Shown here: one piece after another, positions 1-36,015 of the stretch
How positions within the stretch are numbered: the stretch's first letter is position 1
How the letters are laid out: every line of letters begins with the position of its first letter
From: a virus
Taxonomy: Duplodnaviria > Caudoviricetes
Strand: one strand, 5' to 3'
IMG/VR virus record: IMGVR_UViG_3300027741_000073
Location: 1-58,173 of that record
Length of the DNA stretch: 58,173 nt
The notes under the pieces: generated by a model
The model's database searches: none
The model's input: the letters and a program-made list of their open reading frames with translations, nothing else
Told to the model about the DNA's origin: nothing
Position numbers and translations under genes: made by a program

Positions 1-16
1 TGTGTATTATGAAAAT

Positions 17-365: not shown

Positions 366-550
366 AGAAAAAATACCTCTGCATCTATGATCATGACCAT
401 TACACTCAAGGTGATTCTGTAGAAGATGCCTTTGATGAAATGCAAAGTCAATACAGTCAAGTCGAAATTGATGACTGTGAATTCTTCGAACTCTTCCCTC
501 TCCACGTTGAACGTGAAGTTGTTTGGAATATCCAAGGAGTACAACAATAA
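362..550 (+). CDS. hypothetical acidic protein
   Basis: Coupled start/stop overlaps at both ends. Confidence 0.7.
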   Translation: MKKKYLCIYDHDHYTQGDSVEDAFDEMQSQYSQVEIDDCEFFELFPLHVEREVVWNIQGVQQ

Positions 551-837: not shown

Positions 838-911
838 TATTATCAAAAACAGAAAAGTCAATGTATCAAATACAAAGACTTAATGACGGAATACAACCAA
901 AAGAACCTAAA

Positions 912-13024: not shown

Positions 13025-15225
13025 TGAATCCACTCCAATATCTTTCTGAACGTGTATCCAAGGTAGTAATTAATTCAGACAAGATCTTTAATGAGGGTGC
13101 GCGTCTCCTTGCACATCACCCTACATGGGAATATGATCTTGAAAGATTTATTAATGAATCATGGGACACACTACTGCGATACTGCATACGTAACAAGAAT
13201 GCTACGCACAGTGCTTCAGTTAAACTCACCTTCGCATCTGATCTTATTGGGAAAAGAATTGCAAGGGCTATTGGCATTGATGAACACAACATCAAATCCA
13301 CCCTCTCTCTGGGAGATATTTTCCTTGAAACGTTCTTACAAGACGGTCTAATAGATATCTTTAGAGAGTATGAAGGTCGTAAAGCCCCTTACATGGTGCG
13401 TATTGTTAATCAAACAGATGACGTTAAGCCTACGCTTATCGGTACTTCATTTGAACCTCTGCTGCCTATTGCTGGGCTATACAGCAACCTTACTAAAGAA
13501 CCATTCATTAAAGGATGGACTAACAGCAAACTATTTCATGAGTATTTAAGTAAACCTTTTATTAAAAGTATGGAAACATTACGCCAACAACCTTGGTCGT
13601 TAAACCTACCTCTGTTAAAGGCTATGGAAGAGAATCATCCTACCGAAATACTTGAACTAGTAGATGCTGATGGTGAGATATACAAATATAATATCCACCA
13701 TGAAAACCTACACTTACCTAAGAAACTTAATCATATAGATGGTACAAAGTTCTTTGGTAAGAAAGACCCTAAGCTACAAAGACTTATAAGTAAATACTTT
13801 GAGTACAGTCAAGTAATAAAGAAAGCACAGCTAGTTGGTAATAGAACTTTCTATCAAGAAGTATCTTGCGACTATCGTGGACGAGTCTACTATGCAGAAT
13901 CATTCCTTGAGTTTCAAGGTAGTGACTTAGCACGTAGTCTCTTTTTATTCGCTAACAAAAAAGAAATGACTGATAAAGGTTTCTTTTGGCTTAAGGTTCA
14001 TACAGCAGCTTGCTATAATAAGTCATTCAACATTAATGATATGCCATCCTATTTCAGTACAGACTACAAGACGTACTTACAAGAAGAAGGTCTTGATACC
14101 ATATCATTAGACAAAATGACTCTTGAAGATAGAGCTGCATGGGTAGATAATAATATGGATAAGATTAGTAACATAGCTAGTCATGATGCTATAGATATGT
14201 CTGCTGAAAAGCCTTTTAGTTTGTTAGCATGTTGCTATGAAATCAAGAACTATATTAGAGCTAAGTCTGAAGGTAACTCCTACATGTCTGGCTTTCCTAT
14301 ACCTATTGATGGTAGTAATAATGGTTGGCAACATCTGGCTGCTATGTCTAAAGATAAACAAGCAGGTACCTTAGTGTCCTTGGTACCTACTCTTATTCAG
14401 AAAGACTTTTACGTAGCTGTTGCTAAAGAACTTATCAAGACTATGCCTGAGTGGTTTGAAGAAAAACAAATGCCTATGAAGCATATCCGTAAGGGTATTG
14501 CTAAACGAGGTTCAATGACTCGAGCATATAGTGCTGGTAAGAAGCGTATAGCTAAAAACATGTACGATGACTGTCATGTAGAAGGTTATACTGTTAAGTA
14601 CAACATAGACCAGGATCAATGTGACGTTCTAGCTGGTAACCTTATTAAGGCTATCAATGAAGTATGTGCTGGTCCACTTAAGACAACTAAATATCTTCAA
14701 AAGATTGCAGAACATGAACTCAACTCAAATAGAAATCACCTTGCTTGGCATACTCCTTCTGGTTTCCCTGTTATTTATAAAGCTTACCTTCAGCACGAAC
14801 GTAAACAAAGAGGTACAATACGGGGTATTCAAGGAAATAAAGATGGTCGTGTCATGCACGTTATTAAAGTGGATGTCCTCAATAAAGAGACTGGCGAACG
14901 AGTACCATGCCGTAGGAGTTATGCTTCGGGTATCAGTCCTAATGTTGTACATTCCTATGATGCTGCTCACATGGCTAATACTGTTGTTGGCTTCAACGGT
15001 AGCTTTGGTGCTGTCCATGATTCGTTTAGTACCCATGCTGATGAGGTGGATTTTCTACAAGAAATAACTAAGATAACCTTTGTTGCTCAATATGATATTG
15101 AAAACTTCTTTAACCTACTACAAGACACTCTTATGGAGAATAAAGAATTATTCACTTTCCCTCAGCCAGTAACAGGAAGCTTAAACCTACAAGAGGTTTA
15201 TAATTCAAAGTATTTCTTTTGCTAA
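13024..15225 (+). CDS. single-subunit T7-type DNA-directed RNA polymerase (733 aa)
   Basis: DYRGRVY, PIDGSNNGWQH, RKGIAKRGSMTRAYS, PNVVHSYDA, AVHDSF. Confidence 0.95.
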   Translation: MNPLQYLSERVSKVVINSDKIFNEGARLLAHHPTWEYDLERFINESWDTLLRYCIRNKNATHSASVKLTFASDLIGKRIARAIGIDEHNIKSTLSLGDIFLETFLQDGLIDIFREYEGRKAPYMVRIVNQTDDVKPTLIGTSFEPLLPIAGLYSNLTKEPFIKGWTNSKLFHEYLSKPFIKSMETLRQQPWSLNLPLLKAMEENHPTEILELVDADGEIYKYNIHHENLHLPKKLNHIDGTKFFGKKDPKLQRLISKYFEYSQVIKKAQLVGNRTFYQEVSCDYRGRVYYAESFLEFQGSDLARSLFLFANKKEMTDKGFFWLKVHTAACYNKSFNINDMPSYFSTDYKTYLQEEGLDTISLDKMTLEDRAAWVDNNMDKISNIASHDAIDMSAEKPFSLLACCYEIKNYIRAKSEGNSYMSGFPIPIDGSNNGWQHLAAMSKDKQAGTLVSLVPTLIQKDFYVAVAKELIKTMPEWFEEKQMPMKHIRKGIAKRGSMTRAYSAGKKRIAKNMYDDCHVEGYTVKYNIDQDQCDVLAGNLIKAINEVCAGPLKTTKYLQKIAEHELNSNRNHLAWHTPSGFPVIYKAYLQHERKQRGTIRGIQGNKDGRVMHVIKVDVLNKETGERVPCRRSYASGISPNVVHSYDAAHMANTVVGFNGSFGAVHDSFSTHADEVDFLQEITKITFVAQYDIENFFNLLQDTLMENKELFTFPQPVTGSLNLQEVYNSKYFFC

Positions 15226-18769: not shown

Positions 18770-18818
18770 AAAAAAAATAACCCCTATTAGGAATAATCCT
18801 AGTAGGGGTTTTTTATTT
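18768..18818. terminator. bidirectional intrinsic terminator between the convergent genome arms
   Basis: A-run, stem AACCCCTATTAGGA / TCCTAGTAGGGGTT (18779-18810), T-run. Confidence 0.9.
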
Positions 18819-21800
18819 ATTTAGCTTTAAGTAATACTTCGGCTAATACTTTAGCCTTCTCAGAGAACTTTCTTTCAAATCCATCATTAATAATTTTAGA
18901 AAGAACATCAGGACTATTTTCAAATCCAAGAACATAGTTACGTTCCCAATTCCAACCTTTATTACCAGAGTCTTCAGAAGATTTATTCTCTTCAATAGCT
19001 CTATCTAACATATTCTTTTCTTTAGTACTCTCAGATTCAACTTTAGGTTCAGGTTTAACCCATTCAACAAAGTTTCTAATAGCAGAACCACCAGCGCCTG
19101 TTGTAGTCATTTGAGCTATACCATGCTTCTTAATAAACTTATTATCAATCATAGCCTTGTATGCTCTATCTACTCCAGCACTGAATCCACTAACAAAAGT
19201 CTTACGGATATTTTCAGCTCCACCCATCTTTTCGTTGTTTTCAGCTAACGTAAACAAAGCTTTAAAAGCATTACGATTAACTGCTAGGTATTTGCTGTTA
19301 GGTTCCCATCCAAGAAGTTTAGCTTCTTTAAGCACTTGCTTAGTGTTAGCTACATACTTCTCCCAACCCTGATTAGCTTTACTTTTGCTGGTACGTTTAT
19401 CAAAGATCTTCTTATAAGAATCACTATTAAGTTTATCTTGTAAGTCATTAAAGTAACCACCAAGAACTTTATATCTACCTGTACTACCTATGTCAATGAA
19501 TTGACGTCCAGCTAAGATGTTATTAAATACATTGTTTTTAGCATTTTCATATGCTTCGTCTATGCGTTTACCAAACTGTTTTATCTCAGGTATAGCTTGT
19601 GGTATAGCAATATTATTATAAGCATTACGATATATATGCAATGATTCAGGACTAGTAATTAACGCATCATGAACTGTCATAATAGGCATTGGTATCTTTA
19701 AGTCTTTGTTAACATAGTTAAGCATTAATTTAAGTAAGTCAGCATCAGTAGATTGAACAGATAATACACCAATTTGTCGAGCTAAACGAGAACCATAAGG
19801 GTTGTTATAAGACTCATGTTTATTCTCTACAGCATTATAATATGATTGAACACCAGCAGTTGCTGAAGGAGTTAACCCACGTCTGCCTTCTCTGACAGCT
19901 AGGTTATTACCACCAACACTATAAATAGTTTCTTTATATCCTGGCATCATCTCTTGCGACTGACCTGAAGAAGAAGGTTGAATCCTATCTTTAGCTTCAT
20001 CTCTAGTAAATCCCATTTCAACAGTGCTGTATTGCATATCGTCTCCACCAACACCCTTATGGGTAGGTACTGTATCTAACATAGCAAACATACGACCATA
20101 TCGAGCAAGGTTCTTTGTGTATGTTGAATCAACTACTTTGCGTAAAGCACCTTCAAGACCTAAGTTTAAATCACGAGCAGCTTGAATAAGTACTGTTCCA
20201 TTCTTAACATCATTCTTATATACACCAGTCTTTTCTAAATGTTTCATAGCAAGTCTATTGTACTTACCATTGTTTAAAAACTCATACATATTTTCAAAGA
20301 ACATACCAGCATCTTTTGAATAAGAGTTTTCCATTAAAGGTTTTTTAATCAAGTCAGATACTACTGAATTACTTTCTTTTCTGACAGCTTCAAAAAAGTT
20401 CTTCCATGCAGTCATTACTTCAGGACGATCTGACAAAATATCATCCATCTGATCTAGCATAGTTGCATAAGTGTAATCACGCATATTACCTAAACTAGGG
20501 TCATATGTACTTAAGCGAAGAGCTGTGTTAGGATTACCAGCAAACAATGATTGAATGAAAATACCATTTTGGTTTCCATCATCAAAGTTCATTGCTGTAA
20601 CTTGTATTGGCATACGTTTCTTTGCTGGATCAATAAATGATTTTTGCGCTTGGAACATATCATCCCACAAGTTTTGGTTAGCAGAAGCTTCACCTCGCTC
20701 CATACCTGCTAATAGATTAACAATCTCAGGACTAGCCTTAGTTGGATCTTCTAACCATTCATTATACATCTTACCTATATTAGCTAAGTAAGCACCAATC
20801 TCAGGTGTGTATGCCATGATATTATCTGCTGGAGCTTTACCAGCAACCTTAGTTTTAATACCTTCAGGTGCAGTATAGTTATAGTAGTTATTAACCGCCA
20901 TTTCCATTAAGCCTAATGCTGATCTTTGATATGGTGTTAGCGCCATTAATGCTTGGTGTTGTTCAACTCCTGGCTTAGTCTTATTAAAAACTCTATTAGC
21001 TAATGCTTTTAGGTTATCAATTTCTTTTGTGTCAAACAAGTCAGACACTTGTATAATAGATTTAACACCAAAGTTAAGCATCTCTCTTATAGCGCTCTTA
21101 GAACTAATAATATCGGTATCAGGATTACGTCTATCAAAACGGTGATTAGCAGTTGCATGAGCATAAGATGTATACAACAAATGACCTAGATCTTTTTGTG
21201 CTAAACCTAAATCATACTTCAACCTAGCTAATCTGTTCTGCATCTCTTCACGAGCATGTTCATCTTGTTTAGCTTCATATTGAAGTTGTTTGTTGCTATC
21301 ATTAGCATTATAATCTTCGTCTTTACCTACAGCGTTCTTTAATGAATTAAAAGCAGTCTCACCCATCTTATGACGATCAGCAAAGATACTTTTGCTAAAG
21401 CCTGACTCATCATCAAACTTAGCAGTTACATCTTCAAGCTGTTTCATAAGTGAGTTAACCGACTTAGGATTAAACATCTCAGCTATACGACCTAAAATAT
21501 TCTTAGCGTAAAATGCACCGTTATGTTTAGTTCCTGGAGCCATCTTAGAGTTCTTAGTAATCTGGTTACCCTGATTAATGAACTCACCTAATGGAACACG
21601 AGAAGCCATATGCCTACGTTCAGAGCCAGTAACAGCTGCAGCTAAATCTTCAAGAGCTTTACTTTGATCCTTTAGAGCTTTTGAAGGGGCAAACATAGGC
21701 ATACCATCTTTATTCTGATACTCTAATAGATGCCCATTACCATACTTACCAGCAAAAGCTGCTTGAGCTAATTTGTATGATGTTCCATCTGGAAGATTCA

Positions 21801-22725
21801 AACCACGATTAGCTAAGGCAGTATCAAATGCAGCAGCAGTTGCGTTAATAATATTTATCTCATTAGCTTCATCATTGTTCTCTACATTAGACCCGTCAGG
21901 ATTAATGCCAGTACTAGGCGAAGACATTTGAGTTACAGCACGAGCAAAACTAAGAGCTATATACGAAGGAACAATCTTAAGGGCGTTAGATAAACTTTCA
22001 CCCTCAAGACCAGCATCTTGTAGTATCTCTGTACCAGCCGCAATACCTGTATTGTATAATTCACCTGTATCAGGATTTATTTTAGGTACTTTAACTGACT
22101 CAGAGTTGTTAGAGAATAGTTCATTCCTAATACTTTGAGTGGCATACTCAAGAGGAGTAGCCGCTGTTATAGACTTTTGTTCTATCTTCTCAGGAGACAG
22201 GTTAGTAAACCCAGCTTCATTAGATTTTTCAAACAAAGACCTAGCAGTATCAGCAGCACTATCTCCAAACTCATCTAAGTTTGCATTAGAAAAATCCCTT
22301 AGACCACTCAATTGACGTTGTTGTTCTTTTTGATAATCATCTAAAGGAACTTCTCTAGATAATGGATTGCCACTTTCATCTCTAGCTACATTACCTTGTT
22401 CATCTAATACAGGCTCATAAGGTCTGTTAAGAAGGTATGGATTACCTGTAGCGCCTACTAATGAACTGTTGTCAGTTACATCAGGTTGCACGTGTACCCC
22501 TGCCATACCAGCAAATTTAGGCTTAGGGATTTCCATTGTAGCTGCAACAATAGGAGGGACATTAGCAATGTTTTGTAAAGGATTAGCTCCTGACTCAGGA
22601 GAGACAGGCAAAGTTGGTTCTGGATTTATTTGCCGTTGAATTTCTTCAGCTGAATTTACACCATTAGGTGCTAATGTTCTAAGTCCAGATCCAGGACCTT
22701 GGGGGTTTTGTATAAAACGTGCCAT
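18817..22725 (-). CDS. putative virion-encapsidated single-subunit RNA polymerase (1302 aa)
   Basis: FDDGNQNG (motif A), KKPLMENSYS (motif B), SVQSTDA, TVHDAL (motif C) in T7 order; no Cys; located among ejection protein genes. Confidence 0.75.
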   Translation of the reverse strand: MARFIQNPQGPGSGLRTLAPNGVNSAEEIQRQINPEPTLPVSPESGANPLQNIANVPPIVAATMEIPKPKFAGMAGVHVQPDVTDNSSLVGATGNPYLLNRPYEPVLDEQGNVARDESGNPLSREVPLDDYQKEQQRQLSGLRDFSNANLDEFGDSAADTARSLFEKSNEAGFTNLSPEKIEQKSITAATPLEYATQSIRNELFSNNSESVKVPKINPDTGELYNTGIAAGTEILQDAGLEGESLSNALKIVPSYIALSFARAVTQMSSPSTGINPDGSNVENNDEANEINIINATAAAFDTALANRGLNLPDGTSYKLAQAAFAGKYGNGHLLEYQNKDGMPMFAPSKALKDQSKALEDLAAAVTGSERRHMASRVPLGEFINQGNQITKNSKMAPGTKHNGAFYAKNILGRIAEMFNPKSVNSLMKQLEDVTAKFDDESGFSKSIFADRHKMGETAFNSLKNAVGKDEDYNANDSNKQLQYEAKQDEHAREEMQNRLARLKYDLGLAQKDLGHLLYTSYAHATANHRFDRRNPDTDIISSKSAIREMLNFGVKSIIQVSDLFDTKEIDNLKALANRVFNKTKPGVEQHQALMALTPYQRSALGLMEMAVNNYYNYTAPEGIKTKVAGKAPADNIMAYTPEIGAYLANIGKMYNEWLEDPTKASPEIVNLLAGMERGEASANQNLWDDMFQAQKSFIDPAKKRMPIQVTAMNFDDGNQNGIFIQSLFAGNPNTALRLSTYDPSLGNMRDYTYATMLDQMDDILSDRPEVMTAWKNFFEAVRKESNSVVSDLIKKPLMENSYSKDAGMFFENMYEFLNNGKYNRLAMKHLEKTGVYKNDVKNGTVLIQAARDLNLGLEGALRKVVDSTYTKNLARYGRMFAMLDTVPTHKGVGGDDMQYSTVEMGFTRDEAKDRIQPSSSGQSQEMMPGYKETIYSVGGNNLAVREGRRGLTPSATAGVQSYYNAVENKHESYNNPYGSRLARQIGVLSVQSTDADLLKLMLNYVNKDLKIPMPIMTVHDALITSPESLHIYRNAYNNIAIPQAIPEIKQFGKRIDEAYENAKNNVFNNILAGRQFIDIGSTGRYKVLGGYFNDLQDKLNSDSYKKIFDKRTSKSKANQGWEKYVANTKQVLKEAKLLGWEPNSKYLAVNRNAFKALFTLAENNEKMGGAENIRKTFVSGFSAGVDRAYKAMIDNKFIKKHGIAQMTTTGAGGSAIRNFVEWVKPEPKVESESTKEKNMLDRAIEENKSSEDSGNKGWNWERNYVLGFENSPDVLSKIINDGFERKFSEKAKVLAEVLLKAK

Positions 22726-22727
22726 GC

Positions 22728-25700
22728 TTAATTACCTTTCATATCATTTAAAATGTCTACTGTTTTTCTAGATACAATAGGAAATGAACCTACTACTGGA
22801 AGACTACGCATAAGTTTTTGCGCACCCTTCTCAGGTCTACCTTCTAGAACATCAGCAACACCTTCACCAGTACGAGCTACATAGTTAAAGGTTGGGGACT
22901 TATCCTTAGCTTGTTCATAAGCCCATTTTCCAGGTTGTTCAGTAATTTTTGTTTTAGACTGTGGATATACTGGAGATACAAAGTCAGATAGTCTTTCAAA
23001 CTGACCTAACAAACCTGAAGAATGTATATTACGTTGTGCTCTCTTAGCTTTACCTTTTACATAAGGACTTTCTTCCCCATAAGATAATTGATCTTTAAGA
23101 GCATTACCTACGCTAGCCATTAACAATGCACTAGCCATAGTAACAAACGCGGAGTAACCCATACCTGCATTATTGCTTAACAAATATTGCTTGTACAGTC
23201 TTGGAAGGATAACAGCGTGAGCTGCGGCCATAAAACGAGTCATAACAGTAAACACCCTTAAATAAGGATTGTAATAATACTTAGGAATATTATATGGTTG
23301 AGGATTAACAACACGAGAATCAACAAAGTTACCTAATGCTGTTTGTATATTGTCATATACAGCTTTAGTGCTGTCATTCATTTCATCACGATTTCTTTCA
23401 GAAAAAGCATTATTAAAAAAATGAATATTATTTTGATCAGACTCTGCATCTACAGCATTCATTAATGCTTGTACATTAAGACCATACTGTTGTAGCTCCG
23501 CTAACGCAGCTGCTTGTGCTTTATTAAGACCTTGACCTGTAGCTAAGGCTACTTCTCTAATATTAGGGTCTACTTGAGCAAGAGTCATTACTTGGTTCAT
23601 CATAATATCGCCAGCAACAGTTAACACGGCTATACGCATAGCATCTGTTTGTGCTCTTAAACCAATCATAGATGCAAAGAAAGCCATAGCATTTTGTTGT
23701 CGTGAATCATTAAATTCAAACTTAGATTGTACGTTAGATATCTCATGTCTAAAGCCAAGGTTTTGCATCATCTCTCTAACAAAGAACCTATCTTTAAGAG
23801 CTAATAACTCTACATCTTTATCTATAGCGTCTAATTGTTCTTTTAATTCAATCTTACGATCTAAATCTTTAAGACTATTAGAACTTGATTGCTCTAGCTT
23901 TTTGTATTCATTATCTAACAATGTTCTTTGATCTTCATATTTTTGTATCTTAGCACTAAGAGTGCTATCAGTACTAGAGAATGCCCAGCTTGAGTACAAT
24001 CTACCTATTCCAAAGTTAGCTGCTTTCTTTATATCATCGCCTAGCTCTGATTTAAATTCTTTTGCAAATGTTTCTAATTGCTTTAAGAACAATTCATGAG
24101 GAGTACCTAACATAGTATATGGTACTTCAGCCATAGAAGATATAGTAGCTTTACCTAAAGCTGCAGTCATAGCAGCAGTATTAAGCCAACCAACAACTTT
24201 AGATAAATAAGGATGATCATCCATTGAATGGTAATTACCCTTTACAATTTCAAAGAAAGCTTGTGACTCACCAACAGCTGATTTAAAAGCTAATAATGCT
24301 TTATCACCTGTTCCAAACTCACCATTGTTCCATGCTTTAGATAAACCTTTGGCAAGTACTTCTCCATTTTTACCAAAATATTTTGCAACACCAATATCTC
24401 GAGCCAAACGACTTTTAACTGATTGAACATTATCTAATATATTTGATTCAAAGAATTGACTTAAGCTAGGGTTATTAAACATACCTAGTCCAGCTAAATA
24501 GTCTTTAGCTAACTCTGCCTTCTCTCTGTTACCAGAAACAAGGTTGTTAACTGCTTTACTTATTTCATGAAGATGTTCAGATGGATTTGCTTTAGATAAC
24601 TCATCTAATATAAAAGCTTTATTTTTATTCCATTGTTTAAGATCAACTAAATTAGAATCTAACAAGCTAGTTGGATCAAGAAGAACCCTAGATGCTACCC
24701 CACCAACACTATCAGCTTGACTTCTTAAGGTATTAACAGCTTCTTGTTGTTCTACCCACCATTTGTTTAACTCTTTGTTAATTAAATTTTGTTTATCATC
24801 ACCAGTATTTTGATTAAGATATGCACCTTGCTTCCAAGTTGTTACTGCATCTTTAATATAGGTATCTAACAAATTTTTATTAATATTTAATTTACCAGCC
24901 AATGTAGTACCATCAGTTTTTACTGTATCACCTATTAAGTTTTGAACAAATCTATGGAATGATGCTCCAGGAAGTATACCGTCTCCAGCATACATAGCTT
25001 TTAAAGCACCTAAGTAATATTTAGAATTTCCATTTTCATCTGTTATAGATGGAAACATTTTATCAATTTGTCTACCCATAAATGTAGTAAATGGGGACAA
25101 CAAAGATCTACCTACACTTGCAAGACCTCTTGATGCAGGTAACTTGTACAAATCATCAGTAGCATGTTCATCATTTAAATTAAAGTTACTATTTCTTATT
25201 TGTGATGCAGCCTGTTCAGCACTTACAAAACCACCATTATTTGTTTTAAGACGTTGATTGTTATCTGATTGATATTGTTGAGCATCAGAGATATTACCTT
25301 CATAATTCTTAAGACCACTATCAATGGCATGCCACTGAGCTGTATTGGTTATCATACGTGGAGCCATGAATGAAGCAGAAAAACCTAATCCACCTAATCC
25401 TGCATTAAGCATTGTACGAGAAAAGCCTGCTTCATTTTCTGGAGTAAAATTTCTTTTACCAGCTGAACCAAGTAATTCCATATACTCTTGAGTCATCTCT
25501 TGACTAGATTGTATAGCAGAATTTTCTACTGCATACAGTGAGCCACGTAATAAAGCTTCTTTAGATAGATATTGTTTTTTAGCAAAGTCATGAGAGTAGT
25601 CAGCAAGAGCTAACAATTCTTTTTTAGTTCTTTGTTCTATATCTATTAACGCTGCCTCTTTAGTTGCAGCTCTGCCTGTTTGAACCATAGCTTCCGCTAA

Positions 25701-27152
25701 TTTAGCTCTAGAACCTGAAGCAAAGATATTATTAAGCGCAGAAGTACCTCCGAACATACCTTTTAATTCTAGTTGTTCAGCTAACTGTTCGAAAGTACCT
25801 GTGCCAATAGCTAATGCCATATCTTTTTTACCTTCTGGTTGAGCACCATAATTCTTACCAGCAAATAAAAGTGTTCCAGGAATTATAGTAGATGCCCCAG
25901 CAAATGGCCCACCCATACCTGCTACTGCAACCATTGTTGGTAAAGAACCTACAATAGAGCTTGCTACAGTGTTTGTAACAGCAGATAATTTACCCCATGT
26001 GCTTTTACCACTGTTAAATGTTTCCATAATAGTGTCATTACCACCAACACTACCTTCTGCATCTAACATTATTTGGGCATTGCTCCATGCTCTACGACCA
26101 GCTTTACTTAAATAATTTAATTTAGCTTCAGGGTCAGCTTTAGTAAAGGCATCTTGATTTGGCTTACTACCAAAATATTTTTCATAAGCATCACCAGTCA
26201 TAGCTGCTACACCAGCACCCCATTGAGCTGTCTTTAAACCACCTTGGTATAAAGAATCCAAATAATAATTGTCATGCATTTGATTATCAATATTACGATC
26301 ATTTTTATTAAATTTAATAAAACTAGTATTATAAAAGTTTTGCATGTTAGTTACTTGTTGTAATCTAATTTGAGCTTCAAGAAGTTCTTTACGTTTTTCA
26401 GCAATAGCATTATCAGTTAAAGCGTAATCAGTAAATCCTTTTTGTGTAGGGTCTTTAGCCCTCTCATGCATGGCAATTGTATCTTGAAGATCTTTAATGT
26501 TATCAGTAAGGTTAGCAATACCTTTATTAGAATACATTGCTTTAAAGCCAGCTAATTCTTCTGGATTAGCCGCAGTAACTTTAGGTAATACTGGAGGATA
26601 GTTACCCGCTTTAGCAGCAGCTAATTCTTCTTCTTTTACTTTTAAACCAGCTCTTAAATAAGGATTACGTTCAAGAACAGAAGGAAATACTTCGGCATTA
26701 GCTGCATTAGAAAGACGTTGATTACTAGCTTCTGGGGTAGTTTCTTTGCTGACAGGAGCTAAGAAATTACGTACTAAAAAGTCTTGTGCTTTATCGCCTA
26801 CTTGATTTTGACGTTCTAAAAGAACGCGACGGCTAGGAGTCGAATCACGACCTTTAGTTATACCCGTATTGTATCCCATCTCGGATAACGCTTGTGGGGC
26901 TAAAACAGAAGCACCTTGATTTTCACCAAATTTAATAGTACCAGTAACTGGATCAAATCGAGTTACCTCGGGTTGGTTAATTCCATAGTCACGATATTTT
27001 ACGTTATCCTTAATAAAGGTGTCTGCATCTATAAACCTATCTTGGCTAAACACAACAGATTTAAGGCTTGATTTTTTACCATCAATAGAGACATCTTTTA
27101 ATGTGGATGCATCTTTGTCCATTGCTGCAAGGGTGTCTTCTATTGTAATCAT
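22728..27152 (-). CDS. large internal virion / DNA ejection protein (1474 aa)
   Basis: Size and position; helical Ala/Gly-rich with hydrophobic patches; no Cys seen; N-terminal SNase-like motif. Confidence 0.7.
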   Translation of the reverse strand: MITIEDTLAAMDKDASTLKDVSIDGKKSSLKSVVFSQDRFIDADTFIKDNVKYRDYGINQPEVTRFDPVTGTIKFGENQGASVLAPQALSEMGYNTGITKGRDSTPSRRVLLERQNQVGDKAQDFLVRNFLAPVSKETTPEASNQRLSNAANAEVFPSVLERNPYLRAGLKVKEEELAAAKAGNYPPVLPKVTAANPEELAGFKAMYSNKGIANLTDNIKDLQDTIAMHERAKDPTQKGFTDYALTDNAIAEKRKELLEAQIRLQQVTNMQNFYNTSFIKFNKNDRNIDNQMHDNYYLDSLYQGGLKTAQWGAGVAAMTGDAYEKYFGSKPNQDAFTKADPEAKLNYLSKAGRRAWSNAQIMLDAEGSVGGNDTIMETFNSGKSTWGKLSAVTNTVASSIVGSLPTMVAVAGMGGPFAGASTIIPGTLLFAGKNYGAQPEGKKDMALAIGTGTFEQLAEQLELKGMFGGTSALNNIFASGSRAKLAEAMVQTGRAATKEAALIDIEQRTKKELLALADYSHDFAKKQYLSKEALLRGSLYAVENSAIQSSQEMTQEYMELLGSAGKRNFTPENEAGFSRTMLNAGLGGLGFSASFMAPRMITNTAQWHAIDSGLKNYEGNISDAQQYQSDNNQRLKTNNGGFVSAEQAASQIRNSNFNLNDEHATDDLYKLPASRGLASVGRSLLSPFTTFMGRQIDKMFPSITDENGNSKYYLGALKAMYAGDGILPGASFHRFVQNLIGDTVKTDGTTLAGKLNINKNLLDTYIKDAVTTWKQGAYLNQNTGDDKQNLINKELNKWWVEQQEAVNTLRSQADSVGGVASRVLLDPTSLLDSNLVDLKQWNKNKAFILDELSKANPSEHLHEISKAVNNLVSGNREKAELAKDYLAGLGMFNNPSLSQFFESNILDNVQSVKSRLARDIGVAKYFGKNGEVLAKGLSKAWNNGEFGTGDKALLAFKSAVGESQAFFEIVKGNYHSMDDHPYLSKVVGWLNTAAMTAALGKATISSMAEVPYTMLGTPHELFLKQLETFAKEFKSELGDDIKKAANFGIGRLYSSWAFSSTDSTLSAKIQKYEDQRTLLDNEYKKLEQSSSNSLKDLDRKIELKEQLDAIDKDVELLALKDRFFVREMMQNLGFRHEISNVQSKFEFNDSRQQNAMAFFASMIGLRAQTDAMRIAVLTVAGDIMMNQVMTLAQVDPNIREVALATGQGLNKAQAAALAELQQYGLNVQALMNAVDAESDQNNIHFFNNAFSERNRDEMNDSTKAVYDNIQTALGNFVDSRVVNPQPYNIPKYYYNPYLRVFTVMTRFMAAAHAVILPRLYKQYLLSNNAGMGYSAFVTMASALLMASVGNALKDQLSYGEESPYVKGKAKRAQRNIHSSGLLGQFERLSDFVSPVYPQSKTKITEQPGKWAYEQAKDKSPTFNYVARTGEGVADVLEGRPEKGAQKLMRSLPVVGSFPIVSRKTVDILNDMKGN

Positions 27153-27155: not shown

Positions 27156-29945
27156 TTAGTCTTTCTTATTTTGTTTTGCTATTAAAGATTTATAATACTC
27201 TAACGCAGGTGACTTACCAAGAGGAGCGTCATCTAAGAATTTATTATAAGCTTTTGGATTGTTCTTTTTAAGATCAGCCCAATTGTCTTCAATATTTTTA
27301 GCCATAACAGCGGGAGTTATATCTAAAGTTTTATTAGCAGCCTGAGCCTGTTTAGCTAACCTACCTACTTCATGACCAGCTTCTAATTGTTGTTGAGTAT
27401 TTCCTTTTGAAAGGAAATTCTTATTATTAGTAGTATCTGATTTAACTTCCATTAAAGGACTATTAGCACCTGTTTTAATAACATTAGTTTGAATAGCTAG
27501 TTCTAAATTCTCTTGGTTAATAGGCATTTTAGAATTAACTAAATGTTGATAAGCATCGTTAACAATACGAGCAACCTGAGTATCATTAGCTTTAGTCATT
27601 CCCATATTGTAAAGTACGTTATGAGTTGCTTCAACTAATTGAGGTTTATTATAATTCTTAACGTCTTCACCTTTTTCATTCTTAATTGTTTCAGGTATGC
27701 TACTTGATATTGCACTTTTTAACTTACTAGTATTAAGCTCTTCAGTACCCTTAAATGAGTATTTACTCATATCAAGAGGAGAACCGTCTAATGTAGTATA
27801 TCTTTGATTAACTGGTGCTCTAGGGTCAAATATAGCATTAACAGCTACACCATTAGAATCAGTAACTAAAGTAACTTGTTGAACAGGAGAAGGCATGTTA
27901 ACAGTATTGCCTTTGTCTTTGTGTTGAACATTCATAGACATCAACACAGTAGCTTTACGTAGATTATTACGTTGTTCTTCAATACGGTCTTCAGGTTCTT
28001 TGCTTTTAAGCGGTGCATAAGCAAGGCTAAAAGCTTGATTGCGCACATTCATTGGAACATCTTTGCTGGCAAAGTCTTCAAAACGATCTCTATCCTTTTC
28101 ATATTCTTTACGCAATTCTTTTCTATCAGCAGTTAGCTTAGTCATTTCATCTTTACGTTCTTTAGCTATTACACGTTGATCTTCAATTTGATAGCGTTTT
28201 TCTTGACCAGCCATTTGAACAGCGGCAGTACGAACAGCACGATCATCTGACTTTTCTGCACGACGATCTGCTGCTATCTCAGCGGATTCTCTTCCTTGAC
28301 GTTGTAATGAAGTCTCAAAAGCATTTTTACCAGCAAATGAGAATGACCTAGCACTATTATATCCACGAGCACGACTACCTAAATACATTACAGCCATACG
28401 AGCTACTTCTTGATTGTTTAAACCAAGAGTGTCTTTAAGACCTTTGTATGAAAAGATATTTTTAAACGATTCAATGAATCCTTTGTCATCATTCTTGTAC
28501 CTATCAGCTGCTTTTTCTACATCACTATTAGCACCTTTAAATTGTTTAATCCAATAGTCAGGATTAGTACGGTCTTCTTCAGAGCCTTTAGGTGGGAACT
28601 TAGGTGGAGGAGTTAGACTTCTGCTTGCACTTGCAGCAGGTGCAGCTTCAGGGTTCTTATTCCTATCCATGTTGTTTACTTCAGAAACTGTATCAATAGA
28701 TAAATCTGGTGGTACAGCTGTAGGAGTTGGTACAACAGCAACAGTAGCTTTAGGTACAGGAGATACTTCAGCAATATTTACTGGCTTAGGTTGACCTTCT
28801 TGTCCTGCTTTATATTTATCAGCAACATTACGCATAGTGGTTTCATCTAAACCATCTTCTGTGTCAGGGTTACGACCAGTAGCCCTCATATAATATTCTT
28901 TCCATGCTGTAGGGTGGTTTTCTGATTTAAGCATTGAACCGTTTGGTGTAGAAGAAGGCCAATGGTATTTATTATTATCTTCAGGTGAGCGTTCAGGCAT
29001 TATACCTGCATCCCATGCTTTACGATAATCGTAGTTAGCATTTTTACTTAAATCAGGTGGCTCACCATATTCTTTATTAAATTCGCTATACCATTCAGTA
29101 CCTTTCATAGCACGTTGAAATCGATCTTCAGGATTATCTTGAATACCAGCTGGGTTAAACCCACCACCAACATCATATCCAGAAACGTTTTCTACACCAT
29201 TTTCATAATGAGGTACATAACCACCATGCATCATTGGTATACCATTATATATAGAACCATCTGCATTAACATTAGGAGCCATTTCTAATTCATGCGCACT
29301 AGTAGTGCCATCCGCATAACAGGCTTTACCATCCTTATAAACCACATTCATTGAGCCTTCAGCATATTTATCTGGGTTGTACATTTGCTCATATTGAGCA
29401 TTTAATGTACCATCTTCATAACCCATACGTTTCTTTACGGGTTTAACAGTAGGTAACATAGCTAATTGATGAGGAATGTCAACAACACCAGTTGTACCGC
29501 GAGCATGATGTTGTGCCTGACGACCTTGTTGAACCATCTTAGCTATCATAGGTTTATTACGTGGGTCTTGAGCAGCAGCTCTTGGTATGACTGCCTCTCC
29601 AGGAGTTAACATAGCAGGAACTGTATCAGTACCTTGAGCCAACATGTGTTGACCTTGTTTAAACATACCTGTACCAGACATAGGGTTAGAAGAAGGTAAG
29701 CCTAATTTTTCACGATTCATACGTGGTTTATTACCTAATGGTCCACCTAATTCATTTACTTTTAAGCCATGAAGTTCTTCTTTATGACCAATACCTTGGT
29801 GTGCTTTTGCAGCAGCTTCCATAAGTTTAACTTCATGTAATTGATCTTTACGACTCTCTTCTTTTTCCATCTTAGCGGATTCACGAGACTCTTTTGCAGA
29901 GAACTTTAACCATTCTCTATGTTGTTTACCTGATAGTGGCCCCAT
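27156..29945 (-). CDS. internal virion / ejection protein (929 aa)
   Basis: GTDTVPAMLTPGEAVIP motif, Y-x-x-G repeats, coiled-coil segments, position. Confidence 0.65.
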   Translation of the reverse strand: MGPLSGKQHREWLKFSAKESRESAKMEKEESRKDQLHEVKLMEAAAKAHQGIGHKEELHGLKVNELGGPLGNKPRMNREKLGLPSSNPMSGTGMFKQGQHMLAQGTDTVPAMLTPGEAVIPRAAAQDPRNKPMIAKMVQQGRQAQHHARGTTGVVDIPHQLAMLPTVKPVKKRMGYEDGTLNAQYEQMYNPDKYAEGSMNVVYKDGKACYADGTTSAHELEMAPNVNADGSIYNGIPMMHGGYVPHYENGVENVSGYDVGGGFNPAGIQDNPEDRFQRAMKGTEWYSEFNKEYGEPPDLSKNANYDYRKAWDAGIMPERSPEDNNKYHWPSSTPNGSMLKSENHPTAWKEYYMRATGRNPDTEDGLDETTMRNVADKYKAGQEGQPKPVNIAEVSPVPKATVAVVPTPTAVPPDLSIDTVSEVNNMDRNKNPEAAPAASASRSLTPPPKFPPKGSEEDRTNPDYWIKQFKGANSDVEKAADRYKNDDKGFIESFKNIFSYKGLKDTLGLNNQEVARMAVMYLGSRARGYNSARSFSFAGKNAFETSLQRQGRESAEIAADRRAEKSDDRAVRTAAVQMAGQEKRYQIEDQRVIAKERKDEMTKLTADRKELRKEYEKDRDRFEDFASKDVPMNVRNQAFSLAYAPLKSKEPEDRIEEQRNNLRKATVLMSMNVQHKDKGNTVNMPSPVQQVTLVTDSNGVAVNAIFDPRAPVNQRYTTLDGSPLDMSKYSFKGTEELNTSKLKSAISSSIPETIKNEKGEDVKNYNKPQLVEATHNVLYNMGMTKANDTQVARIVNDAYQHLVNSKMPINQENLELAIQTNVIKTGANSPLMEVKSDTTNNKNFLSKGNTQQQLEAGHEVGRLAKQAQAANKTLDITPAVMAKNIEDNWADLKKNNPKAYNKFLDDAPLGKSPALEYYKSLIAKQNKKD

Positions 29946-29946: not shown

Positions 29947-30453
29947 TTAAATCCATTTCATTTGTTTAGCAAGTAATAAACCACCTATTAGCCCTAATGG
30001 ACCACCCACAGCAGCTAGCATACCAGTACTTGCTAAGCCAGCACCCATAGTTGCTAACGAAGTACCTTCAGCTGCAGCCGCCGCTGGGCCAATAAGAGCA
30101 GCACCTTCACCTAAAGTAGCAGCAGTAGCAGCACCTTCACCTAGAGTAGCAGCAGTAGAAGCATTTCCTACAATACTTGGAAGAGGTTCCACAACATTAG
30201 AAGTTTCTACAACAGGAGCTAAAGGAGCAGCAACTTTTGCAGGTGTCATTGTTTTAAAACCAGCATCAATACCCGCATTAATACCTCTGTTAACAATTAT
30301 TTGTTGAGCCATTTGGCCTAATCCAGGTGGTCCCTGCGTAATTTGTGGTTGTTGAGGGTTATTTTGAGGTACTTGTAAAGTATTGTTTGTTTGAGGTACA
30401 TTAGGATAACGCATTGGTTCATTAGCCCAATCCCAAGGATCTTGATAACTCAT
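29947..30453 (-). CDS. small ejection/pilot-type virion protein
   Basis: Gly/Ala-rich hydrophobic C-terminus; ATAATLGEGA tandem duplication. Confidence 0.55.
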   Translation of the reverse strand: MSYQDPWDWANEPMRYPNVPQTNNTLQVPQNNPQQPQITQGPPGLGQMAQQIIVNRGINAGIDAGFKTMTPAKVAAPLAPVVETSNVVEPLPSIVGNASTAATLGEGAATAATLGEGAALIGPAAAAAEGTSLATMGAGLASTGMLAAVGGPLGLIGGLLLAKQMKWI

Positions 30454-35998: not shown

Positions 35999-36015
35999 CC
36001 TATTAGGTACCGATT
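35999..36015 (-). promoter_or_regulatory. putative phage RNAP promoter (AATCGGTACCTAATAGG)
   Basis: Intergenic copy directly upstream of phoH. Confidence 0.7.

What the first reader, a model, noticed from the sequence alone, without database searches (positions are those of the whole stretch)
18817..22725. Cryptic second RNA polymerase among the ejection proteins: candidate compact virion RNAP
Seen: the 1302-aa last gene of the structural arm has T7-superfamily motifs in the correct order. These are FDDGNQNG (~20563-20586; T7 FDGSCSG, Asp537), KKPLMENSYS (~20317-20346; T7 KRSVMTLAYG), SVQSTDA (~19741-19761; T7 FVHSQDG) and TVHDAL (~19660-19677; T7 IHDSF, Asp812). It contains no cysteine. Known: N4-like phages inject a Cys-free virion RNAP, but that is a ~3500-aa polyprotein paired with a two-subunit RNAPII. 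Inference: this phage packages a stand-alone ~1300-aa polymerase, close to the size of the N4 mini-vRNAP domain, and also encodes a single-chain 733-aa RNAP. That would give a host-independent two-step transcription programme in a genome that is neither T7-like nor N4-like. I cannot tell from here whether relatives have been described.
Basis: partly seen in the sequence, partly recalled or inferred. Interest (0 to 1): 0.92.

Follow-up and report, generated by a model that had tools for sequence, protein, structure and literature searches.

The report
Hidden compact RNA polymerase beside ejection genes
A 1302-residue unannotated protein at the end of a marine phage's virion gene block is a real but very divergent T7/N4-type RNA polymerase that is probably carried in the virus particle, which would extend injected polymerases beyond the N4 phage family.

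Summary
ORF 18817-22725 (minus) encodes 1302 aa with no cysteine, and the four motifs lie at the stated coordinates.

The polymerase reading is strongly supported:
- An AlphaFold2 model of aa 121-1302 has pLDDT 88.6.
- It matches only single-subunit RNA polymerases: Foldseek 6.6e-14 to yeast mtRNAP; VIA Z 24.9 to T7 RNAP over T7 residues 25-883; Z 17.5 to N4 mini-vRNAP.
- Profile comparisons align D716, K794, Y802 and H1019-D1020 with T7 D537, K631, Y639 and H811-D812. They align R529 with N4 R424.
- Both Asp residues are invariant in 98 of 98 family members, including gp33 of the cultured Roseobacter phage CRP-7.

Virion packaging is inferred, not shown. The supports are:
- tight coupling behind three large Cys-poor genes;
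- synteny in 38 of 38 loci upstream and 30 of 30 downstream;
- the same terminal position as N4 gp50;
- zero Cys against 10 in the phage's own 733-aa RNAP;
- fast divergence, median 31.6% against 77.8% identity.

Sources that name family members call them only hypothetical protein, and six literature searches found no description. Verdict: a new compact variant of a virion-type RNA polymerase. Interest 0.72.

The parts
18817..22725 (-). Gene for the 1302-aa Cys-free single-subunit RNA polymerase (P0001), last gene of the virion arm
   Evidence: ORF list and translation; 0 Cys; AF2 and fold searches
22366..22725 (-). N-terminal about 120 aa: Pro/Gly-rich, poorly conserved, left out of the fold prediction; possible packaging or ejection segment (inferred)
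   Evidence: Alignment A1 shows few conserved columns here; not modelled (the alignment starts at aa 121)
19105..22359 (-). Polymerase body, aa 123-1207: superposes on T7 RNAP residues 25-883 (N-terminal domain plus thumb, palm and fingers)
   Evidence: VIA-align: model 3..1087 against T7 25..883, Z 24.9, rmsd 6.3, 602 aligned; Foldseek more than 1000 alignment columns
21136..21150 (-). T/DxxGR-type motif (aa 526-530, ANHRF); R529 aligns with N4 mini-vRNAP R424
   Evidence: hhalign against the N4-like profile; R529 in 98/98
20563..20586 (-). Motif A (FDDGNQNG); D716 aligns with T7 D537 and N4 D559; lies at the end of a beta strand
   Evidence: D716 in 98/98; strands at model 586-589 and 593-597
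20317..20346 (-). Motif B / O-helix (KKPLMENSYS); K794 aligns with T7 K631 and N4 K670; Y802 aligns with T7 Y639 and N4 Y678; P796 aligns with N4 P672
   Evidence: K794 is 86 K + 12 R and Y802 is 97/98; helix at model 668-681
19741..19761 (-). Pre-motif C (SVQSTDA); Q991 aligns with T7 H784 and D994 with T7 D787
   Evidence: Q991 96/98 and D994 98/98
19660..19677 (-). Motif C (TVHDAL); H1019-D1020 aligns with T7 H811-D812; lies at the turn of a beta hairpin
   Evidence: both 98/98; strands at model 895-898 and 901-904
18820..19104 (-). C-terminal tail, aa 1208-1302, beyond the T7 match: disordered stretch then a terminal helix; variable in relatives; possible encapsidation signal (inferred)
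   Evidence: pLDDT below 50 at model 1099-1166 and helix at 1152-1181; variable alignment
22728..27152 (-). Upstream 1474-aa Cys-free all-alpha protein with hydrophobic segments; 2-nt gap to the polymerase gene; candidate inner-membrane ejection protein (inferred)
   Evidence: always directly upstream in relatives (38/38); homologous to CRP-7 gp34 (E 2.8e-50); fold searches inconclusive
27156..29945 (-). 929-aa protein (1 Cys) with a conserved N-terminal block and a Pro-rich variable middle; 3-nt gap to the 1474-aa gene; candidate ejection protein (inferred)
   Evidence: weak profile link to CRP-7 gp35 (E 3.4e-4)
29947..30453 (-). 168-aa Cys-free protein, 1-nt gap to the 929-aa gene; first gene of the tightly packed four-gene block
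   Evidence: no PHROG hit
13024..15225 (+). 733-aa T7-type RNA polymerase (10 Cys), in the replication arm directly after the primase-helicase
   Evidence: PF00940 E 4.8e-58; phrog_414 E 4.2e-97; Cys count
53599..53621 (+). Copy 1 of an exact 23-nt element about 20 nt before an early gene; candidate promoter for the packaged polymerase (lead only)
   Evidence: 2 exact copies against 0 expected; small 5-6 bp stem; 0 of 5 relatives keep it
53840..53862 (+). Copy 2 of the same 23-nt element
36001..36015 (-). One of the copies of a 15-nt GGTACC-containing motif, in the same orientation as the minus-strand arm that ends with the polymerase gene; candidate promoter of the 733-aa RNAP. Other copies with 2 or fewer mismatches: 15228, 17391, 56511 (+); 53086-53100, 57105-57119 (-)
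   Evidence: 9 hits at up to 3 mismatches against 1.37 expected; 7-9 copies in each of 3 of 5 related genomes

Best explanation
The gene encodes a catalytically competent, highly divergent single-subunit DNA-dependent RNA polymerase of the T7 / mitochondrial / N4-vRNAP superfamily. It defines a family of about 1200-1400-aa proteins in CRP-7-type marine podophages. The proposed mechanism has four steps, and the first is only partly shown. (1) The enzyme is made late, as the last, tightly coupled gene of a four-gene block (168, 929, 1474 and 1302 aa) at the end of the virion arm. That arm is probably transcribed by the phage's own 733-aa T7-type RNAP from 15-nt GGTACC-type promoters. (2) It is packaged in the capsid core with the large Cys-poor proteins encoded upstream. 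(3) At the next infection it is ejected, largely unfolded, through the tail and across the periplasm; the lack of cysteine avoids disulfide trapping there. (4) It refolds in the cytoplasm and transcribes the leading early genes from its own promoters, of which the two 23-nt elements at 53599 and 53840 are candidates. It then hands over to the 733-aa RNAP for middle and late genes. Shown here: the fold, the conserved active site, the family, the synteny, the composition and the rate of divergence. Inferred: packaging, ejection, promoter assignment and timing. My odds are about 0.95 that it is a true single-subunit RNAP, about 0.9 that it is catalytically active, and about 0.6 that it is virion-delivered and acts early.
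For: Fold: the AF2 model of aa 121-1302, built with a 65-sequence alignment, has mean pLDDT 88.6 and pTM 0.86. In Foldseek against the PDB, 73 hits have E <= 1e-3, and every row shown is a single-subunit RNAP. The best are yeast mtRNAP 8c5u_A at 6.6e-14, T7 8dh0_B at 1.2e-10 and N4 mini-vRNAP 2po4 at 7.5e-10. VIA-align gives T7 8dh5_E Z 24.9 (rmsd 6.3, 602 aligned, T7 25-883), yeast mtRNAP 8att_A Z 22.9 (706 aligned) and N4 3c3l_A Z 17.5 (753 aligned). In BFVD, 55 hits have E <= 1e-3. Of the 50 rows shown, most carry RNAP or virion-RNAP names; the rest have no name or an uninformative one.

Active site: hhalign against 10 T7-like RNAPs gives E 1.7e-5. It aligns D716 with D537, K794 with K631, M798 with M635, Y802 with Y639, Q991 with H784, D994 with D787, and H1019-D1020 with H811-D812. 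hhalign against 6 N4-like mini-vRNAPs gives E 9e-5. It aligns R529 with R424, D716 with D559, K794 with K670, P796 with P672, and Y802 with Y678. Among 98 distinct full-length members, D716, D1020, H1019, D994, R529 and R547 are each 98/98, Y802 is 97/98, and K794 is K or R in 98/98. This holds even though identity to the query falls to 14-20%. The secondary structure fits: motif A ends a strand, motif B lies in a helix, and motif C sits at a hairpin turn.

Virion case:
- Gaps of 1, 3 and 2 nt link the 168-, 929-, 1474- and 1302-aa genes.
- The 1474-aa homologue lies directly upstream in 38/38 loci with enough flank. The 733-aa RNAP homologue lies convergently downstream in 30/30.
- N4 gp50 is likewise the last gene of its leftward virion arm, after gp53, gp52 and gp51, and is convergent with the replication genes.
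- Cys counts are 0 in P0001 and the 1474-aa protein and 1 in the 929-aa protein. They are 0 in N4 gp50, gp51 and gp52 and in CRP-7 gp33, gp34 and gp35. By contrast the 733-aa RNAP has 10, the DNA polymerase 11, CRP-7 gp30 14 and T7 RNAP 12.
- From the counts, the 11 plus-arm proteins hold 75 Cys in 3787 aa (1.98%). That rate predicts about 26 Cys in 1302 aa.
- The family as a whole is Cys-poor: most members have 0 and the maximum is 4.
- Median identity to relatives is 31.6% for this protein and 30.4% for the 1474-aa protein, against 77.8% for the 733-aa RNAP.
- A polymerase made last in the late operon has no obvious use in the cycle that makes it.
- Its size (1302 aa) is close to T7 gp16 (1318 aa; hhalign template length), which the N4 paper's Introduction lists among the ejected proteins.
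- Two promoter-like motif classes exist.
Against: - There is no direct evidence of virion location. No proteome, transcript-timing or activity data were available.
- The neighbours gave no significant match to T7 gp13-16 or N4 gp50-52 by profile (best E 0.027).
- The neighbours also gave no significant fold match. The 1474-aa model has pLDDT 60.4, and the best Foldseek E is 0.11, to the PhiM1 ejectosome chain 8vb2_A.
- Low cysteine is a property of most virion-arm proteins of this phage (31 Cys in 9268 aa, 0.33%). It therefore places the protein with virion proteins in general, not specifically with ejected ones. At that rate zero Cys in 1302 aa has a probability of about 0.01.
- The 23-nt candidate promoter has only two copies and a weak hairpin, and it is absent from 0 of 5 related complete genomes at up to 3 mismatches.
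- Pfam, PHROGs and PDB sequence searches do not recognise the protein.
- hhalign probabilities are moderate (78.6 and 59.4).
- No model coordinates were available, so the distance between D716 and D1020 was not measured.
- T7 R627 (N4 R666) aligns with S790 in this protein; the family has K in 54 and S in 23 of 98.
Confidence: 0.6

Rival explanations
1. It is a genuine, active RNA polymerase that stays in the cytoplasm and is not packaged. It could be a late-acting transcriptase for a subset of genes, or an RNA primer synthase for replication or packaging. On this reading it merely happens to be encoded at the end of the virion arm.
For: The fold and active site are as strong for this reading as for the main one. 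No virion data exist. The neighbours are not demonstrably ejection proteins. Non-virion phage single-subunit RNAPs appear among the BFVD matches.
Against: The protein has zero Cys, whereas every cytoplasmic enzyme of the same phage has 1.4-3.5%. That rate predicts about 26 Cys. It diverges like the virion proteins beside it, not like the replication and transcription enzymes (31.6% against 77.8% median identity). It is tightly coupled to the three upstream genes, and synteny was invariant in every locus with enough flank (38/38 upstream, 30/30 downstream). It occupies the same slot as N4 gp50. The phage already has a T7-type RNAP, and a conserved promoter-like motif stands before both middle and late operons.
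Confidence: 0.2
2. It is a packaged ejection protein whose main job is mechanical. It would anchor or pull the leading DNA end into the cell, as transcription does for T7 entry. It would not express a specific early gene set, or the polymerase activity would be vestigial.
For: It sits beside large, all-alpha, hydrophobic-segment proteins. The N4 paper's Introduction describes vRNAP as the third ejection protein of the ejectosome. The candidate early promoter is weak and not conserved.
Against: Residues that align with the T7 and N4 motif A, B and C positions are invariant across 98 members at 14-59% overall identity. From recalled T7 biochemistry these positions bind metal, NTP and primer. This is the signature of selection on chemistry, not only on shape. 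A pulling role would still need real transcription from real promoters, so this rival overlaps with the main reading.
Confidence: 0.12
3. The motif resemblance is coincidental and the protein is an ordinary structural or internal virion protein with no polymerase fold.
For: There is no Pfam, PHROG or PDB sequence hit. hhalign against single T7 or N4 sequences is not significant (E 0.33 and 0.18).
Against: The high-confidence model matches only single-subunit RNAPs over about 1085 residues. Two independent profile-profile hits put all motifs in register. The catalytic residues are invariant.
Confidence: 0.02

Closest known systems
Coliphage N4 virion RNA polymerase gp50 and its 1106-aa mini-vRNAP domain (Schitoviridae)
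   Same: Both have the single-subunit RNAP fold (VIA Z 17.5 with 753 aligned residues to 3c3l_A; Z 14.3 to full-length gp50 9pnt). The profile match covers the T/DxxGR motif, motif A and motif B, including a shared K-x-P-L in motif B. Both have zero cysteine. Both are the last gene of the virion arm and convergent with the replication genes. In both phages the enzyme coexists with a second T7-type RNAP, which the N4 paper's Introduction says is two-subunit in N4.
   Different: This protein is 1302 aa and stands alone, not 3500 aa. It has no counterpart of the about 1000-aa N-terminal and about 1400-aa C-terminal domains within the same chain. No fused form longer than 2280 aa was found (weak evidence). 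There is no detectable sequence similarity by BLAST or HMMER. The head module is not Schitoviridae-like. The partner RNAP is a single 733-aa chain. The genome is 58 kb, whereas the N4 paper's Introduction gives about 75 kb for N4-like phages.
T7 RNA polymerase (gene 1) and Autographiviridae-type RNAPs
   Same: T7 gives the best structural match: Z 24.9 with rmsd 6.3 over T7 residues 25-883, N-terminal domain included. Motifs A, B and C are in register at hhalign E 1.7e-5.
   Different: This protein is about 220 aa longer within the matched body and carries extra N- and C-terminal tails. It has zero Cys against 12 in T7. It is encoded last in the virion arm, not among the early genes. Gln replaces T7 His784, and Ser790 replaces T7 Arg627. 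It is not recognised by PF00940.
Split vRNAP of Alteromonas phages AltAD45-P1 to P4 (PMC3821669, passages read)
   Same: It is a precedent for an N4-type virion polymerase that is not one giant chain (1404 + 2481 aa). That paper also discusses the cysteine-free rule for injected vRNAP.
   Different: The AltAD45 pieces are recognisable by BLASTP as the two parts of N4 gp50, and they add up to its size. According to that paper, the polymerase-bearing piece has two Cys and the phages have no second RNAP. Here the polymerase is a separate deep lineage of about 1300 aa, is Cys-free, and coexists with a T7-type RNAP.
T7 internal core / ejection proteins gp14, gp15 and gp16
   Same: The series of tightly packed genes of rising size in the virion arm (168, 929 and 1474 aa) resembles T7 gp14, gp15 and gp16 at 196, 747 and 1318 aa (hhalign template lengths; gene order). 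The proteins are all-alpha and Cys-poor. The top, non-significant Foldseek rows include the PhiM1 ejectosome and T7 core chains.
   Different: There is no significant sequence or fold match. T7 has no polymerase in this block.

Membership tests
Single-subunit DNA-dependent RNA polymerase superfamily (T7 / mitochondrial / N4 vRNAP; right-hand Pol I-like fold) | Overall fold: N-terminal domain plus thumb, palm and fingers, superposable on solved members | tested here: met
   AF2 pLDDT 88.6. Foldseek E 6.6e-14 to 1e-9 to mtRNAP, T7 and N4 enzymes; all rows shown are RNAPs. VIA Z 24.9, 22.9 and 17.5.
Single-subunit DNA-dependent RNA polymerase superfamily (T7 / mitochondrial / N4 vRNAP; right-hand Pol I-like fold) | Motif A and motif C aspartates (T7 D537 and D812) present and conserved | tested here: met
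   D716 aligns with D537 and D1020 with D812. D716 also aligns with N4 D559. Both are 98/98 in the family.
Single-subunit DNA-dependent RNA polymerase superfamily (T7 / mitochondrial / N4 vRNAP; right-hand Pol I-like fold) | Motif B Lys and Tyr on the O-helix (T7 K631 and Y639), eight residues apart | tested here: met
   K794 and Y802 are in register with T7 and N4. K or R is 98/98 and Y is 97/98. A helix is predicted at this place.
Single-subunit DNA-dependent RNA polymerase superfamily (T7 / mitochondrial / N4 vRNAP; right-hand Pol I-like fold) | T/DxxGR motif arginine (T7 R425, N4 R424) | tested here: met
   R529 aligns with N4 R424 and is 98/98. The rest of the motif differs (ANHRF).
Single-subunit DNA-dependent RNA polymerase superfamily (T7 / mitochondrial / N4 vRNAP; right-hand Pol I-like fold) | The two catalytic Asp residues brought together in the palm in 3-D | not testable with these tools
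The only support is secondary-structure context and the global superposition.
Single-subunit DNA-dependent RNA polymerase superfamily (T7 / mitochondrial / N4 vRNAP; right-hand Pol I-like fold) | Template-dependent RNA synthesis | not testable with these tools
   This needs a biochemical assay.
Pfam PF00940 (RNA_pol, T7-like) as a sequence family | Score above the gathering threshold | tested here: not met
   There is no PF00940 hit even at E <= 1 for P0001, whereas the 733-aa RNAP scores 197.5 bits. The protein belongs to the fold superfamily, not to this sequence family.
N4-type virion RNA polymerase (Schitoviridae gp50) | Giant chain of about 3500 aa with N-terminal, RNAP and C-terminal domains | tested here: not met
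   P0001 is 1302 aa. Family members are about 1090-1460 aa. No longer fused relatives were found (weak evidence).
N4-type virion RNA polymerase (Schitoviridae gp50) | Detectable sequence homology to gp50 | tested here: inconclusive
   BLAST, HMMER and single-sequence hhalign find nothing. A profile of 6 mini-vRNAPs gives E 9e-5 and probability 59, comparable with the T7 profile.
N4-type virion RNA polymerase (Schitoviridae gp50) | No cysteine | tested here: met
   0 Cys in P0001, CRP-7 gp33 and N4 gp50.
N4-type virion RNA polymerase (Schitoviridae gp50) | Encoded with the ejection proteins at the end of the virion arm | tested here: met
   Position is the same as N4 gp50. The identity of the neighbours as ejection proteins is not shown.
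N4-type virion RNA polymerase (Schitoviridae gp50) | Present in virions, ejected, and makes rifampicin-resistant early RNA from hairpin promoters | not testable with these tools
   Only a two-copy 23-nt element with a weak stem was found. It is not conserved in 5 relatives.

The most novel reading that the evidence does not exclude
CRP-7-type marine podophages carry a fourth ejected protein that is a complete, stand-alone single-subunit RNA polymerase. This would be a third deep lineage beside the T7/mitochondrial and N4 enzymes. Together with their 733-aa T7-type RNAP, it would make their whole transcription programme independent of the host polymerase. On this reading the N4 giant vRNAP is the fused form of an arrangement that survives unfused here: a membrane-active ejection protein plus a polymerase. 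Injected polymerases would then be an older and more widespread podophage strategy than the single family Schitoviridae suggests.
Probability: 0.45. Interest if true: 0.85.

Novelty: new variant of a known kind. Interest (0 to 1): 0.72.

Why it matters
As far as I know, injected single-subunit RNA polymerases are known only from N4-like phages (Schitoviridae) and their split AltAD45 relatives. The N4 paper's Introduction calls the giant vRNAP unique to that family.

A compact enzyme of about 1300 aa in an unrelated head lineage would show that the strategy is not tied to the giant three-domain protein. It would also give a much smaller model for asking how a polymerase is packaged, threaded through a tail and refolded. 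That lineage is abundant in coastal viromes according to the CRP-7 paper (passages read).

The finding assigns a function to a family that sources label only as hypothetical: 93 representatives at 50% identity, and 48 IMG/VR loci. It makes a concrete prediction that can be tested in a cultured phage (CRP-7 gp33). It also adds a new, very divergent branch of single-subunit RNAPs, presumably with its own promoter specificity, which may interest synthetic biologists looking for orthogonal transcription tools.

Tried and rejected
Sequence-level recognition failed. Pfam at E <= 1 and PHROGs at E <= 0.01 gave no polymerase family for P0001. phmmer and a 9-sequence profile against PDB sequences gave nothing relevant. 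tblastn of P0001 against 50,697 phage records gave no match at E <= 1e-3. hhalign of the family against single T7 or N4 sequences was not significant (E 0.33 and 0.18). The T7 hit was nonetheless the motif C region.

I tested whether the three large genes are a split N4 gp50, because the sizes are suggestive: 929, 1474 and 1302 aa against about 1000, 1400 and 1100 aa. I found no support. Profiles of the 929- and 1474-aa families gave no significant match to N4 gp50, gp51 or gp52 or to T7 gp13-16 (best E 0.027). The gene order would also be permuted.

The AF2 model of the 1474-aa protein (aa 275-1474) was of low confidence (pLDDT 60.4). Foldseek against the PDB gave no hit at E <= 1e-3; the top row was the PhiM1 ejectosome 8vb2_A at E 0.11, and T7 core 9jyy_I ranked 15. 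VIA gave at most Z 8.4 on a 62-residue helical hairpin, and Z 6.3 over 264 residues for 8vb2_A. I treat this as inconclusive, not as evidence for or against an ejection role.

The ESM Atlas placed the 1474-aa protein near clusters in which a minority of members carry polyvalent-protein LPD domains (score 0.91-0.93). This is a lead only. It gave nothing useful for the 929-aa protein.

A search for fused forms of 2280-5000 aa found none; the tool itself calls this weak evidence.

The 23-nt element was not found in 5 related complete genomes. Its own stem is short, and the fold z-scores are driven by the neighbouring hairpins. I therefore do not claim an N4-type hairpin promoter.

I did not place the family on a tree of single-subunit RNAPs, because the alignable core is too short and divergent. 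I did not use sequencing runs or the complex predictor.

Supplementary files of papers were closed. Any virion proteomics or annotation tables in the supplements of the CRP-7 paper were not seen.

Six literature searches found no description of this polymerase. The library lacks most subscription journals, so a description there cannot be excluded.

Full report
**What is there**

The window is a nearly complete virus record of 58,173 bp, with a CheckV completeness estimate of 94%. One arm runs on the plus strand and holds the DNA polymerase, exonuclease, primase-helicase, a 733-aa T7-type RNA polymerase and a class II ribonucleotide reductase. A convergent minus-strand arm begins with the large terminase at 51418-53061. 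It runs through portal, scaffold, major head protein and tail-like proteins, and ends with four tightly packed genes of 168, 929, 1474 and 1302 aa. The gaps between these genes are 1, 3 and 2 nt.

The last of the four, 18817-22725, is the finding. A script confirmed its length, the exact coordinates of the four motifs, and the absence of cysteine.

**Is it a polymerase?**

Ordinary sequence searches see nothing. Pfam, PHROGs, PDB sequences and tblastn against 50,697 phage records all gave no relevant hit.

The protein nevertheless has a well-defined family:
- 10 close relatives in one database;
- 93 representatives at 50% identity in another, nearly all 1100-1460 aa;
- 48 loci in IMG/VR.

I predicted the structure of aa 121-1302 from a 65-sequence alignment. 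AlphaFold2 gave a confident model with mean pLDDT 88.6 and pTM 0.86.

Fold searches with that model gave these results:
- Foldseek against the PDB returned 73 hits at E <= 1e-3, and every row listed is a single-subunit RNA polymerase. The best are yeast mitochondrial RNAP at 6.6e-14, human POLRMT, T7 RNAP at 1.2e-10 and N4 mini-vRNAP at 7.5e-10. Alignments span more than 1000 columns.
- VIA-align gave Z 24.9 to a T7 elongation complex (rmsd 6.3, 602 residues, model 3-1087 against T7 25-883). It gave Z 22.9 to yeast mtRNAP (706 residues) and Z 17.5 to N4 mini-vRNAP (753 residues).
- The viral structure library returned 55 hits at E <= 1e-3. Most of the 50 rows shown carry RNAP or virion-RNAP names.

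The match therefore covers a whole polymerase, N-terminal domain included, and not only a palm.

**Active site**

A profile of the family against a profile of 10 T7-type RNAPs gives E 1.7e-5 over 256 columns. That set includes T7 itself and this phage's own 733-aa enzyme. A profile of six Schitoviridae mini-vRNAPs gives E 9e-5 over 240 columns.

| This protein | T7 RNAP | N4 mini-vRNAP | Conservation in 98 members |
|---|---|---|---|
| R529 | not covered | R424 (T/DxxGR motif) | 98/98 |
| D716 | D537 | D559 | 98/98 |
| K794 | K631 | K670 | 86 K + 12 R |
| P796 | no Pro (S633) | P672 | 87/98 |
| M798 | M635 | T674 | 88/98 |
| Y802 | Y639 | Y678 | 97/98 |
| Q991 | H784 | not covered | 96/98 |
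| D994 | D787 | not covered | 98/98 |
| H1019-D1020 | H811-D812 | not covered | 98/98 each |

R547 is also 98/98. These residues stay fixed although identity to the query falls below 20% in part of the alignment. The 98 sequences are distinct full-length members aligned to the family HMM.

The predicted secondary structure fits the textbook arrangement. Motif A ends a strand, motif B lies on a helix, and motif C sits at a beta-hairpin turn.

One departure is that T7 Arg627 (N4 Arg666) aligns with Ser790 here; the family has Lys in 54 and Ser in 23 of 98.

I conclude that this is a real and very probably active single-subunit RNA polymerase. It forms a lineage about equally distant from the T7/mitochondrial and N4 groups.

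**Relatives and context**

The family profile matches gp33 of the cultured Roseobacter phage CRP-7 at E 2.4e-46 over 821 columns. The 1474-aa neighbour matches CRP-7 gp34 at E 2.8e-50. CRP-7 (58,106 bp) has the same layout: RNAP gp30, then convergent gp33, gp34 and gp35, all annotated as hypothetical. The passages I read from its paper name only ORF30 as an RNA polymerase (PMC6918029).

Among the 48 IMG/VR loci:
- the 1474-aa homologue lies directly upstream on the same strand in 38 of 38 loci with more than 4.6 kb of upstream flank;
- the 733-aa RNAP homologue lies convergently downstream in 30 of 30 loci with more than 9 kb of downstream flank.

Portal and capsid are nearest to CRP-7 (53.5% and 49.0% identity), then at about 22-32% to LUZ24-, phiEco32- and 7-11-type podophages. 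No Schitoviridae or T7-like phage appears among the rows listed.

**Is it a virion enzyme?**

This was not shown, but four lines of evidence point that way.

1. Position. It is the terminal, tightly coupled gene of a block of large genes at the end of the virion arm. N4 gp50 occupies the same slot: it is the last gene of the leftward arm after gp53, gp52 and gp51, and is convergent with the replication genes. The N4 paper's Introduction describes vRNAP as the third ejection protein of that operon (PMC13434306).

2. Composition.

| Protein | Cys count |
|---|---|
| This protein (1302 aa) | 0 |
| 1474-aa neighbour | 0 |
| 929-aa neighbour | 1 |
| N4 gp50, gp51, gp52 | 0 each |
| CRP-7 gp33, gp34, gp35 | 0 each |
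| 733-aa RNAP of this phage | 10 |
| DNA polymerase of this phage | 11 |
| CRP-7 RNAP gp30 | 14 |
| T7 RNAP | 12 |

From the same counts, the 11 plus-arm proteins hold 1.98% Cys, which predicts about 26 Cys in 1302 aa. The other 20 minus-arm proteins hold 0.33%. The protein therefore groups with virion proteins, not with enzymes. The family as a whole is almost Cys-free. The AltAD45 paper states the rationale that an injected vRNAP must lack Cys (PMC3821669).

3. Rate. Median identity to relatives is 31.6% for this protein and 30.4% for the 1474-aa protein. It is 77.8% for the 733-aa RNAP and 78.0% for the reductase in the same loci.

4. Logic. A polymerase made last in the late operon is of little use to the cycle that makes it.

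Its size is close to that of T7 gp16, which is 1318 aa by the hhalign template length. The N4 paper's Introduction lists gp16 among the proteins T7 releases into the host.

Several points weigh against over-reading this:
- The neighbours could not be identified as ejection proteins by profile or by fold.
- Low Cys is shared by most virion-arm proteins, not only ejected ones.
- No proteome or transcript data were available.

**Promoters**

Earlier notes of this scan pointed to two repeated elements, and I checked both.

- The 23-nt element occurs exactly twice, at 53599 and 53840, each about 20 nt before an early gene, against 0 expected by chance. Its own stem is short, and it is absent from 5 related complete genomes.
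- The 15-nt GGTACC-containing motif has 9 hits at up to 3 mismatches against 1.37 expected. Copies stand before the reductase gene and the large terminase gene, and at 36001-36015 in the same orientation as the minus-strand arm that ends with the polymerase gene.
- The 15-nt motif recurs 7-9 times in each of 3 of 5 related genomes, with 0-1 control hits.

This pattern fits a conserved promoter for the conserved 733-aa RNAP and a separate, fast-changing early signal. The assignment is an inference.

**Novelty**

Sources that give any name to family members call them only 'hypothetical protein'. Six full-text searches found no description of a compact virion-type polymerase in CRP-7-like phages. 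The closest precedent is the split N4-type vRNAP of the AltAD45 alterophages.

I therefore class this as a new variant of a known kind. It would be an injected-type single-subunit RNAP reduced to a stand-alone chain of about 1300 aa. It sits in a different podophage lineage and is paired with a single-chain T7-type RNAP. The polymerase identity is close to certain. The virion role is the best-supported reading, at about 0.6, and is directly testable in the cultured phage CRP-7.

Noticed in passing
window 1-142 and 58032-58173: The two ends of the record repeat each other over 142 nt at 97% identity, not 100%. This could be a direct terminal repeat or an assembly overlap of a circular or permuted genome. 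IMG/VR classes the record as linear.
   Followed up: no
window 22728-27152 (minus), N-terminal about 140 aa of the 1474-aa protein; relatives in L004-L049: The family consensus has a motif that I recall as staphylococcal-nuclease-like (DPDT...YRL.GFNAPE). The window's copy reads DADT...YRDYGINQPE. Pfam did not detect a nuclease domain. The protein also has four hydrophobic segments (about aa 401-440, 585-600, 990-1005 and 1300-1350), read by eye from the printed sequence.
   Followed up: partly
window 27156-29945 (minus), 929-aa protein: The first about 145 aa are strongly conserved and include GTDTVPAMLTPGEAVIP. A long Pro-rich, length-variable middle and a conserved C-terminal part follow. 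From memory, the motif resembles one seen in tape-measure or injection proteins; I did not test this.
   Followed up: no
window 53231-53460 (plus): The stretch just after the divergent terminase promoter region, including the first small gene at 53348-53572, is visibly almost free of A on the plus strand (sequence read).
   Followed up: no
related complete genomes G001 (L010) and G002 (L014): Two of the five relatives have no copy of the 15-nt GGTACC motif at up to 2 mismatches, although their 733-aa RNAP homologues are 80-81% identical to the window's. The other three have 7-9 copies. This may be a promoter-specificity switch within the group.
   Followed up: no
window 35308-35991 (minus): A PhoH-like gene (phrog_170, E 4.3e-70) sits inside the virion arm, directly downstream of a copy of the 15-nt motif at 36001-36015.
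   Followed up: no
L055 (Bacteriophage DSS3_VP1, Naomviridae) 101-2299: The window's 733-aa RNAP aligns end to end with a 732-aa RNAP of a Naomviridae roseophage at 23.5% identity. It matches the CRP-7 RNAP at 31.5%. Short single-chain RNAPs of this size may form their own group.
   Followed up: no
BFVD entries V5UQ52 (Shigella phage pSb-1, 1453 aa) and A0A7S5FRK7 (1463 aa): Two further unnamed or 'uncharacterized' phage proteins of about 1450 aa match the polymerase model at Foldseek E 1e-9 to 4e-11. They may be other unrecognised or split virion polymerases.
   Followed up: no
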